This document shows positions 3,231 through 58,304 of a stretch of DNA of 64,000 nucleotides, in pieces. The stretch lies in the NCBI RefSeq assembly GCF_009914755.1, contig NC_060947.1. One strand, written 5' to 3'. This DNA comes from the human T2T-CHM13v2.0 reference genome, Homo sapiens. The position numbers were made by a program, and so were the translations under genes. Each line of letters begins with the position of its first letter. The first letter of the stretch is position 1. The notes below the pieces were generated by a model. It was given only the letters and a program-made list of their open reading frames with translations. It ran no database searches and had not been told where the DNA came from.

Positions 3231-4139
3231 AGTGGGGAAGACAAATGTGGTCCTCATTCTAAATGGGCTCCTCTCTGTCAACCACAGCTCTATTTCCTTC
3301 TCACCACATGGGGTAGGCCATCCCCATGCACAACTCACACTTTTAAGCCTATGTGCCTTAGGCTACTTTCTCAGCCTAGAATGCTTGCCCTCACTCCTCT
3401 ACTTAACAAGATCCTATTCTACTCTACTCAGTTAAGGACTGTGTCATATGCCCCTTCTCAGAGAAATTTCTTGGTTGCTCCCCGTCCCAGGTGGAATAAA
3501 TTGCTCTTGTCTTTTTGCTTCCACCTTCATTAGTGTACCCTTTATTTTGTCTTTCTGTAGAGTTTAGCTCATTGTTTACCCGTCTTCCCTACTAGGTTCC
3601 CAGGCACTTGAGGGCAGGCACCAAATTCTATTCACTCTAGCTCCATGGTGGTTTACCCCCAATGATTTAGTGGATGATCAATACATGTTTGTGAGCAGAC
3701 CAAAGGACTGGGTGAGAGATGTCCCCAATGAACAGACAAATGCATTCATTTGTGGCTGGATCCTGGGGCAGTCACACAGGCTACCCATGTGGACTAGACT
3801 GGCTCGGACAGTCTGGAATCCCCTGGGCTCATTTTACTAGGCTGTAAACATAGGAGGCAGGTCAGGGTACAGGTGATATCTTCTCAAGGCCAACTCTAGG
3901 TCCATTCGGTGGTCTGTACTTTGAATTCATGTCAAGGGGCCAGGCTCTCCTAGATTATTTATGTTGCACCTTCCCATTCGTGGAAGAAAGGGCTTCCCTG
4001 CCTCCCTTAGGAACACAAAATGTGTTCCTACATGCCTCTTTATCTGCTTCTGGCTGTCCTGAGAGTGTCTGGAAGGAGCATGTGCTCTGTGGAGACATAG
4101 TGAGGTCCAGAAGCATCTTTTTTTTGGATATCTTTTATC

Positions 4140-53529: not shown

Positions 53530-53857
<328 letters not shown>

Positions 53858-54947
53858 TTACTAGCAATAAATGACCTGATCTTAAAAGTCTGACAGGAAA
53901 CAGCATTGGAATTTGGGATGGTACCTTCTTGGTGATTGCTATTTCTTTAATTCTTCTTAATCGCTAAATCCTTGTTTGGTTCAGTTTCTGGGATTTATGT
54001 TTTACATTCATATATTTAATAAATGTTTCTGAATGTATTATCATAGATTCTTGAAGGGTATTTTTTAACTTCAAAATATTTCCAATTTCATGGATTCAAT
54101 TTTTCTCCATAAGGAGGTTTCTTAGAGAATTGGGGTAACATTTTTTCACCCAACATCACTTATTCACCAACACTAACATTCAGAGTATTTTGGGGATCAA
54201 AATACTGTTAAGAAAACAATTTTAAATTTCGCACATGTTTAAGGATTTGTAATATTTTTACAAGCATCTCAATTTCTGTTTGTGTTGTGTGCTTGGAGAC
54301 TGTGGTTTGGCCATCGTTCCTTATCCACATTCACTGAAGGTGTCGATCATAACTGAGGACAGGAGCCGAACAGCCAGGTCCCTTTAATGCCCAGGACCCT
54401 TCGGCAGCCATGTCAGGGTGTTCCTGCTCAAGCCGGGGTGGCTTAGCCCTTGATAACAGAAGATTCTGAGATGGGTGAGAAGTGGTCCACACGTGGCCAC
54501 TGTCATTCCTCTGGCATAATGGACTTGGGCTCAGGAGGTCAAGCCCTCTTCAAGGAGCATGAGCTGAAATTGCTAAACTTTGGGAGTTTTCCGTGACACC
54601 CTTCAAAGTGCTCACGGTGTGGCATGGATCAGCTGGGGAGGGTTGATGTGGTTTTGCCCTGTGGGGTATCTATCTGTGTACTTTTGTCTGAGGGAGGCAA
54701 CTGGGGCCACTTAGGCCGGCAGGTGCCCACTGTGATTGGTTGACATGATACCAAGCAACAGGATCATCCAGTCACCTTCAATGCAGGGAGGATGGCTGAC
54801 AGGCTCCCTGGGTGACACTTCATGCAATCAGATGTCGAGTTGGACTGTGACATAGAGCCATGTGGCCACACTAAATTCCCCCCCACCCTTCCCCTGTCCA
54901 CAACCGTCATTGTCTGTTCTTGCCATCCAGTGGCCACTGCCTCCACC

Positions 54948-55817
54948 ATGGCTGAGGCTTTCTCTAAGACAACCTCTGAGGAAGACCAGAGCATCCAGGA
55001 GCCCAAAGAGGCCAACTCCATGACGGCCCAGAAGCAGAAGAAGTGAGGGCTTCGAGGCTCCCGTAGGCGCCATGCCAACAGCGGCGGAGATATCTTCGGG
55101 GACAGCTTTGCCGCCTATTTCCCCCGGGTGCTGAAGCAGGTTCACCAGGCCCTCAGCCTTTCCCAGGAGGCCGTGAGTGTCATGGATTCTATGGTTCGTG
55201 ACATACTGGACCGCATCGCCACCGAGGCTGGTCACCTGGCCCACTACTCCAAGTGCGTGACCATCACCTCCCGGGACATTCGGATGGCCGTGTGCCTGCT
55301 GCTGCCGGGGAAGATGGGCAAGCTCGCTGAGTCTCAGGGCACGAATGCCACCCTCAGGTACACCAAAAGCAAGTGAGCTATCTCAGGAGCGCCCGAGCAC
55401 CCGGGAAAGCCAAATGCTCTGTTCAGAACCACCACACGTGGCCCTAAAGACCAGTGGCCTGCCAAGGAGGGGACCCCACTGGAGATTGGGGTGGGTGGCA
55501 CCGTTCTGGCTTGGGGAGCATGTGGCGTGTGGCCTTCTGCGGTTTTTCAAGCATTTTTCCCACAGTGCAAAACACTGTCAACTCCAATACATCTGTAGTG
55601 CAATATGCTCCAAGGAAAAGTAGGGGGTGTTTCCGTAATCGTGTTTCATGTCCTCAGTTTCCTAAATGGCCGTTTTTATCAGTTATCTTTCTAGGTTATC
55701 TTTGTGGTGATATTATCAATGTACTGATGTTTACCCTTTTCACTCTCATTCTCCTACAACTGGATGGTGGAATTTTCCAGAACTTCATTATGTGCGATAT
55801 GGCAAGAGAGAAAGTGA
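54948..55817 (+). pseudogene. H2BW4P: H2B.W-family testis histone variant pseudogene (H2BFM-like); coding exon 1 54948-55357, exon 2 55781-55817
   Basis: ccaccATGg; MAEAFSKTTSEEDQSIQEPKEANS...KQKK*GLRGSRRRH...SFAAYFPRVLKQVHQALSLSQEAVSVMDSMVRDILDRIATEAGHLAHY...LLLPGKMGKLAESQGT (H2B fold); one in-frame TGA 55044-55046; AG|GTAC donor and ttccag acceptor give RTSLCAIWQERK*. Exact paralog symbol is tentative. Confidence 0.88.
55410..55455 (+). promoter_or_regulatory. Degenerate histone mRNA 3' stem-loop and histone downstream element
   Basis: ccaaatgctctgttcagaaccaccac versus consensus CCAAAGGCTCTTTTCAGAGCCACCCA; aaagaccagt (55446-55455) versus AAAGAGCTGT. Confidence 0.75.
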
Positions 55818-58304
55818 ATACGCTGATATAAGAAGCAAGGTAACCCTGCTAAAAGTGTTCAGCATCTTTCTCCCCATGAATCCATGTAAATAAGCAAACG
55901 AGGCACAGTTACAGTGTACATATAGCTAAATAAATTTTCAAGAATCCATTCGTTTTCCAGCTTCCCTGACTCTGAGATCACTATTGCAATTCATTCTCTT
56001 TTTGCACTGACAATAATCATTTCGTTTCTTTTTGAACAGAAACCTTCCTTCCTTCCAGATGTGTGTCAGTAGAATTACAGAGTGTCCACGGAAACAGCTC
56101 ATGCCCTAGTGTACAGTGGTGCAGCCAATGAGTGACCTGAAGTCTATGAGCAACACTCATTGTCCCAATGTGGGACGAGTGACCGAAGCTGAACCCACAA
56201 CAGCCTTCCTGTGATATTCCACGTGGTGGTTAAAGGCATGGCGATGTGATTCTTTACCTGATGTTTTTGTTTGCAGTGTTTGTAATCATGGTCTTTTAGG
56301 GATATGAATCCAAAGCTAAGATTAATATACGTTCCTTGACCCTAACATCAAGTTATACAGAGCATTGTCAGCCATTAGAAGAAGTCAGATAACGCTTATT
56401 TCCTCAAAAGATTGGCATATTAATATTCACGTTAATATTAATACAGGCTACCTTTCATTGTGCTCTCTTCTGGGTCCCAAGTCTTGGTATTTTTAGAATT
56501 TTTTTTTTCTATAAGTGTATTGCTGAATTTCAGAGCAGGTGCTGACTTACCCATTGCTTTCCTTTTCCATTGATTTCCAGTCGCCCGAGTATGTGGACAA
56601 GAGAACATACTCTGGGATTGCAACCCACAGGAATTTATTATGTTGTGCCTTGAAGCTCAATATGTGGCCATTTTTGTTAAATGTTTCCCGTAAATTTTGA
56701 AACATCTCATAAACAACCCTTCTCCTTCATATGTAGAAACCAGTAAAGGATGGCACTCTCAGTCAAACCACGAAGCAAAAGCTGGATAAATGACAAAAAT
56801 CAAAATTTTCTTGAGCCCGTCAGAAGTGGGAAAGAACCACCCCAGAGGGACCCAACACATAGCCACATAGATTATTTCACCATTTAAAGAGGACCCCTTG
56901 GTCAAGAGGGAAAAGGGTTCGGGGCAGGATAGTAGCCAGAGCTTCCCTGAGTAGTGCAGATGGGAAGAGGGGAAGGTCACCTCCAGAGCTCCACTTGGGA
57001 TCCATAGAGAAATGATATAGAACCAAGAAGTCCACTCACTGGGATTTGTTACTTTCTGTTTTTCCAGAATATTAGAAAAATATTATGAAAATAGTTGAAG
57101 AGAAATGTTATGAAAATAGTTGAAGCTGTACTTACTGCACAAGGAGACCAAGAAAAACTCCCACAAAATCAGCTGCAAGTAAATCCCTCTGGATGGTGCC
57201 GCCACATGTTCCTACAAGTCCAGAACAACCCTTGCCAAACCAAAGACACTTGGCAGAACCCTGTTCCTTTCTAGAGACAGAGCTGTATACCTGTTCCAAA
57301 ACACCACATCTCACTCAGTGACTTATTTCTCATTATGCTAATTGTTTTGCTGTAAAGTGCCAATGTTTCTGTGAATTAAGACATACGAATAAATTTCTGA
57401 AGTTACCCTTGCATATGTGTGTAATTAGACAAGTCCTTTTGAGAAACCAGATCCATTGGGATATTTTACCCTGGAATATGTGTTTTCCCTTTGTAAATTC
57501 AGAAATCAAAGAGGAGGATTAGTAAAACAGGGTTAACAATGAAATCTGATTTGTTTGTGGGGAGTGAAGAATGAGGTGGCAAGGGGACTGATGTTGGTGA
57601 ATTATAGGAAGAAAGAGGAAGGGGGTGGATTGATGCGAAGATCGGAAGAGGAAGCTCGCACATTTGATATAGCATTTCAGTGAGTGATTGAGCAGAAGGG
57701 AAACGTAGCGAGCAATCATGATGTCATGTTGCGACTTATAGGAAACACAAACTAAGGGAAAGAGCTTTGCTACCTAAACAACAAATAAGAAGTATCAATG
57801 TAGGGAAAATAGCATGAGTGGGATAAACATAGTCCAGTCAAACATTTTATCAGCTTTCCCTGTAAGCTGGAGTCCATTTGAAAACATAAGCAAGGACCCG
57901 AACGCAGCACAGAGAAAACTACATCAAAAAGTTTAAGGAACAATACCTATTCTAGGCTCCCTCGTAATGAAATCTCACTTGTTTAGATTTATCTGATTCT
58001 GCTCTTCTTCAGGATAGAATCTTTTGTTTTTGAAAATCTTCATGACTGGCCTCTACGTGTCATGGGGATCATGGAATGCTGTCCGATGGCGCAGCACAAG
58101 CTCCACTCGGATCCATGTCAGCCAGTGAGGCAACTGCAGCCGAGGGGCCACAGCCCAAAGTGTGATCAGGTCTCCCGGTCTGAACTAGGAAGAGTTAGTT
58201 GTCCAGGGATGTTCAATGGGAGTTGAAGGGGAAACCTGTGATTAGAGGGGTGTACTTCTTTGATTCCTCGATGGGTTGTATGATTTTAATGCTGTTGATG
58301 GAGG

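What the first reader, a model, noticed from the sequence alone, without database searches (positions are those of the whole stretch)
55341..55840. Fossil canonical-histone 3' end hidden in the H2B.W intron: two alternative C-termini
Seen: without splicing the frame ends ...GTNATLRYTKSK* (TGA 55374-55376), like canonical H2B ...GTKAVTKYTSSK*. 34 nt later is ccaaatgctctgttcagaaccaccac, a decayed histone stem-loop (two stem pairs broken), then aaagaccagt, an 8/10 match to the U7-pairing AAAGAGCTGT at plausible spacing. A donor inside the Arg codon (AG|GTACAC, 55357) can instead join exon 55781 to give RTSLCAIWQERK*, the H2B.W-type tail. Inference: the gene descends from an intronless replication-dependent H2B and gained its intron by using a cryptic donor that skips the old stop and processing signals. 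Functional paralogs may switch between a non-polyadenylated short isoform and a spliced long one. Parts of this may already be published.
Basis: partly seen in the sequence, partly recalled or inferred. Interest (0 to 1): 0.72.

Follow-up and report, generated by a model that had tools for sequence, protein, structure and literature searches.

The report
Fossil histone mRNA end inside intron
A dead copy of a testis histone gene still carries, inside its first intron, the old stop codon and the decayed RNA hairpin of the intronless histone gene it came from, which shows how such a gene switched to ordinary spliced, polyadenylated messages.

Summary
Read without splicing, H2BW4P ends like a canonical H2B (…LRYTKSK, TGA 55374-55376). 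Thirty-three bases later lies a 24-base stretch matching the human histone stem-loop consensus at 21 of 24 places. It is unique in the window, and 0 of 100 shuffles gave a match. The same relic sits at the same place in H2BW1, H2BW2, H2BW3P and H2BP9, each with different lesions, so their common ancestor had an intact stem-loop.

In this copy the relic is dead. Three columns invariant in 30 working human stem-loops are hit, it does not fold, and neither Rfam Histone3 nor my own model finds it. The U7-pairing box is no better than background.

Two additions. The donor differs from canonical H2B by a single base (CAA|GT to CAG|GT, Lys to Arg). The acceptor, new tail and new stop of exon 2 lie inside an old interspersed repeat (nhmmer E 1.5e-17).

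Much is already in print. Raman 2022 found Histone3 hits near H2B.W genes and canonical-length tails in 19 of 23 H2B.W proteins. Lyons 2016 showed H2B genes splicing out their stem-loop.

The proposed isoform switch in human paralogs is unlikely: H2BW1 has lost the old stop, and the stem-loops drift neutrally.

The parts
54980..55357 (+). Exon 1 of H2BW4P (RefSeq NR_003238.2). The reading frame starts at ATG 54948 and encodes the histone fold.
   Evidence: Hub annotation; translation; 91% identical to H2BW2 and 82% to H2BW1 over 1 kb.
55044..55046 (+). Nonsense codon TGA at codon 33, the only in-frame defect of this copy. H2BW1 and H2BW2 have CGA here.
55355..55363 (+). 5' splice site CAG|GTACAC. 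The exon ends at 55357, inside the Arg codon AGG 55356-55358.
   Evidence: H2BW1, H2BW2 and H2BW4P have CAG|GTACAC; 4 of 4 canonical H2B genes have CAA|GTACAC (Lys AAG); H2BP9 has CCA|CTACAC with no GT.
55359..55376 (+). Old C-terminal codons Y T K S K and the old stop TGA (55374-55376), now the first bases of intron 1.
   Evidence: TGA is kept in H2BW2 and H2BP9 and changed to TGC in H2BW1.
55410..55435 (+). Decayed histone 3' stem-loop: 5' flank 55410-55414, 5' stem arm 55415-55420, loop 55421-55424, 3' stem arm 55425-55430, 3' flank 55431-55435.
   Evidence: 3 mismatches in 24, unique in the window, 0 of 100 shuffles. All 3 mismatches hit columns invariant in 30 of 30 human stem-loops. The 16-mer has a minimum free energy of 0.0 against -7.8 kcal/mol for canonical ones. 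No covariance-model match. Orthologous elements in the paralogs score 15-28 bits.
55446..55455 (+). Possible relic of the histone downstream element (U7 pairing box), 15 bases after the stem.
   Evidence: 8 of 10 bases complementary to the U7 5' end from L023. Duplex energy -11.5 kcal/mol, reached by 16% of background windows. Identical in H2BW1, two changes in H2BW2. Weak on its own.
55724..55838 (+). Piece of an old interspersed repeat (family not named) that supplies the pyrimidine tract, the acceptor AG and nearly all of exon 2 (through 55838 of 55839).
   Evidence: nhmmer with a profile of 21 dispersed copies: E 1.5e-17, 55.1 bits here; also H2BW2 9e-18, H2BW1 1.5e-12, H2BP9 1.8e-7, L006 2.1e-29. 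The family has 772 first-look candidates, and 40 of 40 scored places match, the query's own place among them, the others on many chromosomes. 4 of 6 dispersed copies carry TTTTCCAG at the acceptor place.
55781..55839 (+). Exon 2: new tail T S L C A I W Q E R K and new stop TGA 55815-55817.
   Evidence: Hub annotation. The tails of H2BW1 and H2BW2 equal the published proteins. Database protein P0076 carries this exact tail.
57388..57393 (+). AATAAA poly(A) signal, 20 bases before the end of the last exon (57413).
   Evidence: There is no AATAAA or ATTAAA inside intron 1.

Best explanation
55359-55455 is the dead 3' end of an intronless, replication-type H2B gene: its last five codons, its stop, its stem-loop and perhaps its U7 box. 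It is preserved because it now lies in intron 1 of an H2B.W gene.

Proposed mechanism:
1. The ancestor of the X-linked H2B.W family ended like canonical H2B and was cut after the stem-loop.
2. The GT of the Lys-Tyr codon pair (AAG TAC) was already present. A Lys-to-Arg change (AAG to AGG) put a G at position -1 and made CAG|GTACAC.
3. About 350 bases downstream, an old interspersed repeat offered a pyrimidine tract, an AG, 11 more codons and a stop.
4. Splicing from this donor to this acceptor removes the old stop, the stem-loop and the U7 box. It gives the ...LRTSLxAIxQxRK tail and leads to downstream exons with an AATAAA signal. The gene thereby became a spliced, polyadenylated variant gene.
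5. Once skipped, the stem-loop drifted neutrally and independently in each paralog.

In H2BW4P, and in its identical twin H2BW3P, the relic has no function, and the gene itself is dead through a nonsense codon at codon 33.

Shown: the relic, its homology across paralogs, its decay, the one-base donor difference, and the repeat origin of exon 2. Inferred: the order of events and the mode of processing in the ancestor.
For: Relic and homology.
- The match is unique in the window: 3 mismatches in 24, 0 of 100 shuffles.
- It lies 33 bases after the old stop, inside the canonical range of 21-42.
- The alignment of the 3' regions of H2BW4P, W3P, W2, W1, H2BP9 and four canonical H2B genes puts all stem-loops in one column block.

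Graded decay.
- Rfam Histone3 scores: canonical 38.1-38.8 bits, H2BP9 25.6, H2BW1 22.2, H2BW2 16.7, H2BW3P (identical to this copy) none.
- My own model gives 28.1, 25.1, 15.1 and none.
- Hairpin energies: canonical -7.8, H2BP9 -5.5, H2BW1 -3.7, H2BW2 -1.3, H2BW4P 0.0 kcal/mol.
- The lesions differ by lineage. W4P breaks consensus columns 6, 12 and 19; W2 breaks 12 and 19; W1 breaks 8; P9 breaks 6. Their consensus is therefore the intact element.

No constraint on the stem-loop.
- Identity over its 26 bases: W2-W1 21/26, W4P-W1 19/26.
- Identity over the rest of intron 1: 272/318 and 270/318.

Donor. The only difference from canonical H2B is A to G at position -1.

Repeat origin of exon 2. The repeat is also present behind H2BP9, so it is older than the split of H2BP9 from the H2B.W genes.

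Orthologues, from proteins only.
- 19 of 23 published H2B.W proteins end at canonical length.
- Of the 120 database relatives listed (out of 607 with E<=1e-10), 54 are H2B.W-like with a canonical-length end. These include gorilla P0003 (...LRYTKSK), macaque P0045 (...LRYTRSK) and lemurs.
- 22, plus 3 more seen only, have the exon-2-type tail.
- 4 read-through models carry QRLFSEP, which is the frame-1 translation of the intact stem-loop consensus, 11-14 residues after the old end.

Known precedent for the mechanism. HIST1H2BC, HIST1H2BD and HIST1H2BK use a 5' splice site before the stem-loop and yield polyadenylated mRNA without it (Lyons 2016, PMC5100578, passages read).
Against: - Neither Rfam Histone3 nor my own covariance model detects the element in this copy. 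By structure-aware scoring it cannot be told from background.
- The U7 box is not significant on its own.
- The order of events rests on human paralogs and on database protein models. No DNA of other mammals could be fetched, so three things are untested: whether the Arg codon is AGG outside this family, whether the repeat is present there, and whether the stem-loop is intact there. QRLFSEP fixes only about two thirds of the bases.
- H2BP9 has no GT at the donor place. It either lost it after dying or never had it.
- Many of the protein models are automatic predictions that may be guided by human proteins. Raman 2022 itself warns that non-primate H2B.W ends may need revision.
- The repeat family could not be named, because no repeat library was at hand.
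Confidence: 0.8

Rival explanations
1. The stem-loop in the intron of the intact human paralogs (H2BW2, perhaps H2BW1) still works. The genes would then make both a non-polyadenylated short mRNA encoding the canonical-type tail and a spliced long one. The pseudogene copy would be a decayed version of a live switch.
For: - Raman 2022 detected Histone3 matches near H2B.W genes. They proposed alternate processing to explain the poor detection of H2B.W in poly(A) RNA-seq.
- H2BW2 keeps the old TGA.
- Database models with the short end exist for gorilla and macaque.
- H2A.X is a known dual-mode histone gene (Griesbach 2021, PMC7807067, search listing only).
Against: - H2BW1 has TGC at the old stop, and its unspliced frame stays open for 133 codons counted from the tyrosine codon, so a stem-loop-ended mRNA would have no stop.
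- H2BW1 scores 22.2 and H2BW2 16.7 bits against a threshold of 34.
- Each breaks columns invariant in 30 of 30 human stem-loops: W1 a stem pair; W2 a stem pair and the first loop base.
- The element is not conserved above the intron background.
- The U7 duplex of H2BW2 is -7.5 kcal/mol, worse than the background mean of -8.6.
- H2B.W1 and H2B.W2 transcripts are seen in single-cell RNA-seq of human testis (PMC12392092, passages). That the method is oligo-dT based is my recollection, not something I checked.
- Solved structures use the long-tail proteins.
Confidence: 0.1
2. The resemblance to a histone stem-loop is a chance match in an ordinary intron.
For: No covariance-model match for this copy. 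The U7 box is within background.
Against: - 0 of 100 shuffles give a match with 3 or fewer mismatches.
- The match is on the right strand and at the right distance after an in-frame canonical-type stop.
- The same element, better preserved, is at the aligned place in four paralogs.
Confidence: 0.01
3. The intron and the long tail are ancestral to all H2B.W genes. On this view the canonical-type ends seen in most mammals are annotation artefacts (models stopped at the first in-frame stop), and the stem-loop was never used by an H2B.W gene but was merely carried along from the founding duplication.
For: - Exon-2-type tails occur in haplorrhine primates, a squirrel and two horseshoe bats. The spliced structure may therefore date back to the common ancestor of primates and bats.
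- The repeat predates the split of H2BP9 from the H2B.W genes.
- Raman 2022 warns that non-primate ends are uncertain.
Against: - The common ancestor of H2BW1, H2BW2 and H2BP9 still had an intact stem-loop and the old stop.
- Pinniped read-through models translate an apparently intact stem-loop.
- 19 of 23 published proteins and 54 of 120 database proteins have exactly five residues after the Arg, which suggests that the old stop is widely kept.
- This rival differs from the best explanation only in timing, not in what the relic is.
Confidence: 0.09

Closest known systems
Spliced, polyadenylated mRNAs of replication-dependent H2B genes HIST1H2BC, HIST1H2BD and HIST1H2BK (Lyons et al. 2016, PMC5100578, passages read; Kari et al. 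2013, PMC3661734, passages read)
   Same: An H2B gene uses a 5' splice site upstream of its stem-loop and a downstream exon. The mature mRNA therefore lacks the stem-loop and is polyadenylated.
   Different: - In those genes the donor lies between the stop codon and the stem-loop, so the protein is unchanged. The stem-loop is intact and is used in S phase.
- Here the donor lies 17 bases before the stop, inside the coding sequence, so the protein gets a new tail.
- Here the acceptor exon is repeat-derived and the stem-loop has decayed. The switch is fixed rather than regulated.
Stem-loop and poly(A) signals reported near H2B.W and H2B.1 genes (Raman et al. 2022, PMC8857922; sections 10 and 18 and Data S1, S8 and Table S1 read)
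   Same: - They scanned with the same Rfam model (RF00032) within 600 bases of the stop codons.
[quoted passage not shown]
   Different: - In the text I read, the stem-loop is described as lying in the 3' UTR and is offered as a reason for poor poly(A) detection.
- In that text I found no statement that, in the human genes, it lies in intron 1 behind a retained old stop.
- I also found no statement that it is degenerate, that H2BW1 lost the old stop, that the donor differs from canonical H2B by one base, or that exon 2 is repeat-derived.
- Their Figure S15 could not be read here (PDF), so it may show more than the text says.
H2BFWT described as an 'interrupted gene' with 2 introns and poly(A)+ mRNA (Churikov et al. 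2004, PMID 15475252; not held; known here only through the table of PMC4584325, and through reference lists)
   Same: The intron-bearing, polyadenylated nature of the human H2B.W1 gene.
   Different: I could not read the paper, so I cannot say whether it noticed the stem-loop relic in the intron.
Exonization of transposable elements (general phenomenon, for example PMC2879366, search listing only)
   Same: A repeat copy supplies the 3' splice site and the coding sequence of a new exon.
   Different: Here the new exon replaces the C-terminus and the 3' end processing mode of a histone gene. The usual case adds a cassette exon.

Membership tests
Histone 3' UTR stem-loop (Rfam RF00032) | Score at or above the family's gathering threshold (34 bits) | tested here: not met
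   No match at E<=10 for this copy or for its identical twin L001. The paralogs score 25.6, 22.2 and 16.7 bits, all below 34. Canonical controls score 38.1-38.8.
Histone 3' UTR stem-loop (Rfam RF00032) | Six-pair stem with a four-base loop that forms a stable hairpin | tested here: not met
   4 of 6 pairs remain. The minimum free energy of the 16-mer is 0.0 kcal/mol (unfolded), against -7.8 for canonical ones.
Histone 3' UTR stem-loop (Rfam RF00032) | Bases that are invariant in working human stem-loops | tested here: not met
   17 columns are invariant in 30 of 30 human elements. This copy breaks 3 of them (columns 6, 12 and 19).
Histone 3' UTR stem-loop (Rfam RF00032) | Position a few tens of bases after the stop codon of a histone reading frame, on the same strand | tested here: met
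   33 bases after TGA 55374-55376. The canonical range is 21-42.
Histone 3' UTR stem-loop (Rfam RF00032) | Purine-rich downstream element able to pair with the 5' end of U7 snRNA | tested here: inconclusive
   8 of 10 bases match and the spacing is right, but the duplex energy of -11.5 kcal/mol is reached by 16% of background windows. Canonical values are -13.9 to -24.5.
Histone 3' UTR stem-loop (Rfam RF00032) | Binding of SLBP and cleavage by the U7 snRNP | not testable with these tools
   This needs a binding or processing assay.
H2B.W histone gene family (X-linked) | Sequence and gene structure shared with H2BW1 and H2BW2 (exon 1, donor in the Arg codon, exon 2 tail) | tested here: met
   91% (W2) and 82% (W1) identity over 1 kb. 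Same donor, and same acceptor and tail.
H2B.W histone gene family (X-linked) | Intact reading frame | tested here: not met
   Nonsense TGA at 55044-55046, where H2BW1 and H2BW2 have CGA. It is a pseudogene member, as annotated.
Stem-loop-skipping spliced H2B genes (Lyons type) | 5' splice site upstream of the stem-loop, so that the mature polyadenylated mRNA lacks it | tested here: met
   The donor at 55357/55358 lies 52 bases before the element. The exons are those of RefSeq NR_003238.2 (hub annotation). AATAAA at 57388.
Stem-loop-skipping spliced H2B genes (Lyons type) | Donor between stop codon and stem-loop, protein unchanged, stem-loop still used in S phase | tested here: not met
   The donor is 17 bases before the stop and changes the tail. 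The stem-loop is degenerate.
Repeat-derived (exonized) exon | The exon and its acceptor lie within a copy of an interspersed repeat family | tested here: met
   nhmmer E 1.5e-17 over 55724-55838 with a profile of 21 dispersed copies. The family is widespread. The family name was not determined.

The most novel reading that the evidence does not exclude
In some living mammals, H2B.W may be a truly bimodal histone gene. The stem-loop still looks intact in pinniped gene models, while the donor and the repeat-derived exon 2 appear to date back at least to the common ancestor of primates and bats. In such a gene, cleavage by U7 and SLBP would compete with recognition of a donor 17 bases before the stop. 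The same gene would then yield either a stem-loop-ended mRNA for a canonical-tailed H2B or a spliced poly(A) mRNA for a long-tailed one. The mode of 3' end processing would choose the protein's C-terminus.
Probability: 0.15. Interest if true: 0.7.

Novelty: new variant of a known kind. Interest (0 to 1): 0.42.

Why it matters
How replication-independent, polyadenylated histone variants arise from stem-loop-type histone genes is usually inferred from end states. Here the intermediate steps are still readable in one locus:
- a one-base change that strengthens a donor already latent in the Lys-Tyr codons of every H2B gene;
- a repeat that donates an acceptor, a new tail and a stop;
- the abandoned stop, stem-loop and U7 box left to decay at the neutral rate, differently in each paralog.

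The finding also bears on a published suggestion that H2B.W mRNAs are missed in poly(A) data because they carry stem-loops. In the human genes the element lies in an intron and is degenerate, and in H2BW1 it is not preceded by a stop. That explanation is therefore unlikely for human.

The copy in this window is itself a dead gene, so nothing here has a present function.

Tried and rejected
- Rfam scans of the window and of the 104-base core gave only chance matches to unrelated families: IS009, TP53TG1_1, sR1, CLRN1-AS1 and IRES_HepA, all far below their thresholds.
- I built a covariance model from 30 human stem-loops to get a score for this copy. The site did not reach the listing, so its score is under 9.6 bits.
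- I tested the U7 box by duplex energy against 2778 background windows. It is not significant for this copy (0.16), borderline for H2BW1 (0.054), and worse than average for H2BW2. I therefore do not count it as independent evidence.
- A genome-wide Histone3 search listed 65 matches at E<=0.001, none of them in the H2B.W cluster.
- Churikov 2004 is not held.
- Raman 2022 Figure S15, which shows which species have stem-loops, is not readable here. Only its legend title was seen.
- The MS_HistoneDB supplement names a second 'short' H2BFM isoform (A9UJN3) but gives no sequence, so I could not tell whether it is the unspliced form.
- The 2025 H2B.W2 paper (PMC12392092) contains none of the words intron, stem-loop, polyadenyl, isoform or C-terminal in its text, and has 'splic' only in a reference title.
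- A search for H2B.W names together with 'exonization' or 'transposable element' listed no paper on a repeat origin of the H2B.W tail among the 15 shown of 724. The stem-loop and intron searches are.
- I could not name the repeat family. From memory its ends resemble a hAT-type DNA transposon, but that was not tested.
- No DNA of other mammals can be reached with these tools, so the orthologue evidence comes from proteins only.
Full report
WHAT IS THERE. The window's H2BW4P gene, a transcribed pseudogene in RefSeq according to the hub annotation, has a reading frame that starts at ATG 54948. The frame is open to TGA 55374-55376 except for one nonsense codon, TGA 55044-55046. H2BW1 and H2BW2 have CGA at that place. 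Read without splicing, the frame ends ...G T N A T L R Y T K S K stop. This aligns codon for codon with the ...G T K A V T K Y T S S K stop of four canonical H2B genes taken from the same genome.

Thirty-three bases after the stop lies a 24-base stretch (55410-55433). It differs at three places from the consensus of the 30 best histone stem-loops of this genome. It is the only such match in the 64 kb on either strand, and none of 100 dinucleotide-preserving shuffles produced one. In the four canonical genes the gap between stop and stem-loop is 21-42 bases, so 33 is ordinary. Fifteen bases after the stem lies AAAGACCAGT (55446-55455). It matches 8 of 10 bases of the complement of the U7 5' end, which I took from the U7 gene on contig 12. 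The donor AG|GT at 55357/55358 and the acceptor ending at 55780 join to give R T S L C A I W Q E R K stop (TGA 55815-55817).

IT IS HOMOLOGOUS, NOT CHANCE. The window's genome could be searched. The 3' regions of five copies align throughout with the window copy:
- H2BW3P, identical at 3801 of 3801 bases in inverted orientation;
- H2BW2, 91% identical;
- H2BW1, 82% identical;
- H2BP9, 72% identical over 689 bases.

All of them carry the stem-loop in the same columns. The lesions differ:
- H2BW4P and H2BW3P change consensus columns 6, 12 and 19;
- H2BW2 changes columns 12 and 19;
- H2BW1 changes column 8;
- H2BP9 changes column 6.

All of these columns are invariant in 30 of 30 working human stem-loops. 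The consensus of the paralogs is the intact element, so their common ancestor had one.

Three scores show the graded decay:

| Copy | Rfam Histone3 (bits) | Own model, filters off (bits) | Hairpin energy (kcal/mol) |
|---|---|---|---|
| Canonical H2B | 38.1-38.8 | not searched | -7.8 |
| H2BP9 | 25.6 | 28.1 | -5.5 |
| H2BW1 | 22.2 | 25.1 | -3.7 |
| H2BW2 | 16.7 | 15.1 | -1.3 |
| H2BW4P / H2BW3P | none at E<=10 | none among 29 matches at E<=10 | 0.0 |

The paralogs give sub-threshold matches at the expected place, and this copy gives none.

IT IS DEAD. Between H2BW1 and H2BW2, the 26 bases of the element are 21/26 identical, against 272/318 for the rest of intron 1. Between H2BW4P and H2BW1 the figures are 19/26 and 270/318. 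There is no sign of constraint. The U7 box is not independently significant:
- the duplex energy is -11.5 kcal/mol for this copy;
- 16% of 2778 background 45-mers are as good or better;
- H2BW1 has -13.7 (5% of background as good or better), and H2BW2 has -7.5, worse than the background mean;
- canonical genes range from -13.9 to -24.5.

H2BW1 has TGC at the place of the old TGA. Its unspliced frame runs on for 133 codons, counted from the tyrosine codon, and passes through the stem-loop. A transcript cut there would have no stop codon. H2BW2, which keeps the stop, remains the only candidate, and a poor one.

HOW THE INTRON AROSE. The GT of the donor is not new. It is the last base of the Lys codon and the first base of the Tyr codon in every canonical H2B examined (CAA|GTACAC, 4 of 4). 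H2BW1, H2BW2 and H2BW4P have CAG|GTACAC. The only change is A to G at position -1, which is also the Lys-to-Arg replacement. From general knowledge of U1 pairing, a G at -1 is the most conserved exonic position of a donor. H2BP9 has no GT there.

The acceptor side is repeat-derived. Window 55686-55842 has dispersed matches on five other chromosomes. One of those copies has 772 first-look candidates in the genome, and all 40 scored places match, the query's own place among them. The other 39 have E of 6.3e-23 or better and 68-79% identity. An nhmmer profile built from 21 copies hits as follows:
- window 55724-55838, E 1.5e-17;
- H2BW2, E 9e-18;
- H2BW1, E 1.5e-12;
- H2BP9, E 1.8e-7;
- an orphan fragment, L006, E 2.1e-29.

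Nearly all of exon 2 (55781-55839; the profile match ends at 55838), its pyrimidine tract and its AG thus lie inside a repeat copy. Four of six dispersed copies carry TTTTCCAG at the acceptor place. Because H2BP9 has the repeat at the same distance behind its stem-loop, the insertion predates the split of H2BP9 from the H2B.W genes. The last exon carries AATAAA at 57388, and intron 1 has no AATAAA or ATTAAA.

ORTHOLOGUES (PROTEINS ONLY). No DNA of other mammals is reachable with these tools. Raman 2022 Data S8 lists 23 H2B.W proteins. Nineteen end exactly five residues after the Arg or its equivalent: armadillo ...RYTSHK, elephant ...RYKSRK, mouse ...RYISNK, horse, cow, sheep, rabbit, panda, and dog W.1 and W.3. 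Four are longer and diverge right after that residue: human W.1 and W.2, dog W.2 and horse W.3.

A database search with the unspliced H2BW2 protein (P0001) found 607 relatives at E<=1e-10, of which 120 were listed. My script classed the 120 as follows:
- 25 canonical replication-type;
- 54 H2B.W-like with a canonical-length end, including gorilla P0003 ...LRYTKSK, macaque P0045 ...LRYTRSK and lemur proteins;
- 22 with the exon-2-type tail;
- 7 longer in other ways;
- 1 partial;
- 11 not placed by the script.

The plainer listing resolves those 11: 3 have exon-2-type tails, 3 are of canonical length, 2 are read-throughs, 1 is another splice form, and 2 remain unplaced.

The exon-2-type tails are not confined to primates. 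A squirrel (P0061) and two horseshoe bats (P0062, P0074) have clearly homologous ones. The spliced structure may therefore go back to the common ancestor of primates and bats. This is an inference, and these are automatic gene models.

Four read-through models contain QRLFSEP 11-14 residues after the old end: monk seal P0105, sea lion P0108, grey seal P0109 and the unnamed P0098. QRLFSEP is the frame-1 translation of the intact stem-loop consensus. A tamarin model (P0014) has a decayed version of it.

WHAT IS ALREADY KNOWN.
- Raman et al. [quoted passage not shown] - H2BFWT is tabulated as having 2 introns and poly(A)+ mRNA (PMC4584325, citing Churikov 2004, which I could not read).
- Lyons et al. 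2016 showed that HIST1H2BC, HIST1H2BD and HIST1H2BK use a conserved 5' splice site between stop codon and stem-loop to make polyadenylated mRNAs without the stem-loop. Kari et al. 2013 showed spliced polyadenylated HIST1H2BD mRNA on polysomes.

I did not find the following in the text I could read (searches; papers):
- that in the human H2B.W genes the stem-loop lies in intron 1 behind a retained old stop and old tail codons;
- that it is degenerate and drifting;
- that H2BW1 lost the old stop;
- that the donor differs from canonical H2B by one base;
- that exon 2 is repeat-derived.

Raman's Figure S15 and Churikov 2004 may contain part of this, and I could not see either.

VERDICT. The finding is a real and rather pretty molecular fossil. 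It lies in a dead gene, and the element itself is dead. Its functional speculation for the human paralogs is unlikely. It is a new variant of a known kind (stem-loop-skipping spliced H2B genes), partly anticipated in print. My confidence in the fossil identity is about 0.95. My confidence in the whole model, including the order of events, is about 0.8.

Noticed in passing
window 53600-57400 (= L002) and L001 (own genome contig 23, 102501583-102505383, minus strand): H2BW4P and H2BW3P are identical at 3801 of 3801 bases in inverted orientation, about 86 kb apart. This fits arms of a large inverted duplication kept identical by gene conversion, or a very recent duplication. The extent of the arms was not measured.
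   Followed up: partly
L006/L015, own genome contig 23, 102353141-102353427, plus strand (about 8.6-8.9 kb before the window start): An orphan fragment homologous to the 3' part of H2B.W intron 1 plus the repeat. It matches window 55524-55809 at 74-75% identity, and its repeat match is longer and better than in the genes (E 2.1e-29). No H2B coding part or stem-loop lies upstream of it. It is on the opposite strand to H2BP9, 7 kb away, and may be the remnant of a sixth family member.
   Followed up: partly
L005, own genome contig 23, about 102345456-102346113, minus strand (H2BP9, outside the window): H2BP9 is a DNA-level relative of the H2B.W genes, not a copy of a canonical H2B: its 3' flank aligns with theirs. 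It keeps the best-preserved stem-loop of the cluster (25.6 bits Rfam, 28.1 bits own model) and the old TGA, but it has no GT at the donor place.
   Followed up: partly
own genome contig 23 at 94007387, 89244493 and 100438054; contig 24 at 4053165: Sub-threshold Histone3 matches (31.2-33.2 bits) on the X and Y chromosomes, outside any histone cluster I looked at. They may be further relics of histone-derived genes or pseudogenes.
   Followed up: no
proteins P0105, P0108, P0109, P0098, P0014, P0028, P0056: Several automatic gene models of H2B.W-like genes in pinnipeds, tamarin and mouse lemur read through the old stop into the former 3' UTR. Some translate the stem-loop itself (QRLFSEP). Such models are probably annotation artefacts, but they are useful as indirect views of the orthologous DNA.
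   Followed up: partly
Raman 2022 (PMC8857922), sections 5 and 13 and Table S1: The text says that all H2B variants other than H2B.K and H2B.N lack introns, while the methods say that exons and introns of H2B.W were annotated. The Table S1 spans for human H2B.W.1 (492 bases) and H2B.W.2 (429 bases) are shorter than the full spliced coding length would need. The intron of the human genes is thus easy to overlook in that data set.
   Followed up: no
MS_HistoneDB (PMC5223428), Table 3 and supplement file 2: A second, 'short' putative isoform of human H2BFM (UniProt A9UJN3, ENST00000417637) is listed without a sequence. Whether it is the unspliced ...LRYTKSK form was not determined.
   Followed up: partly
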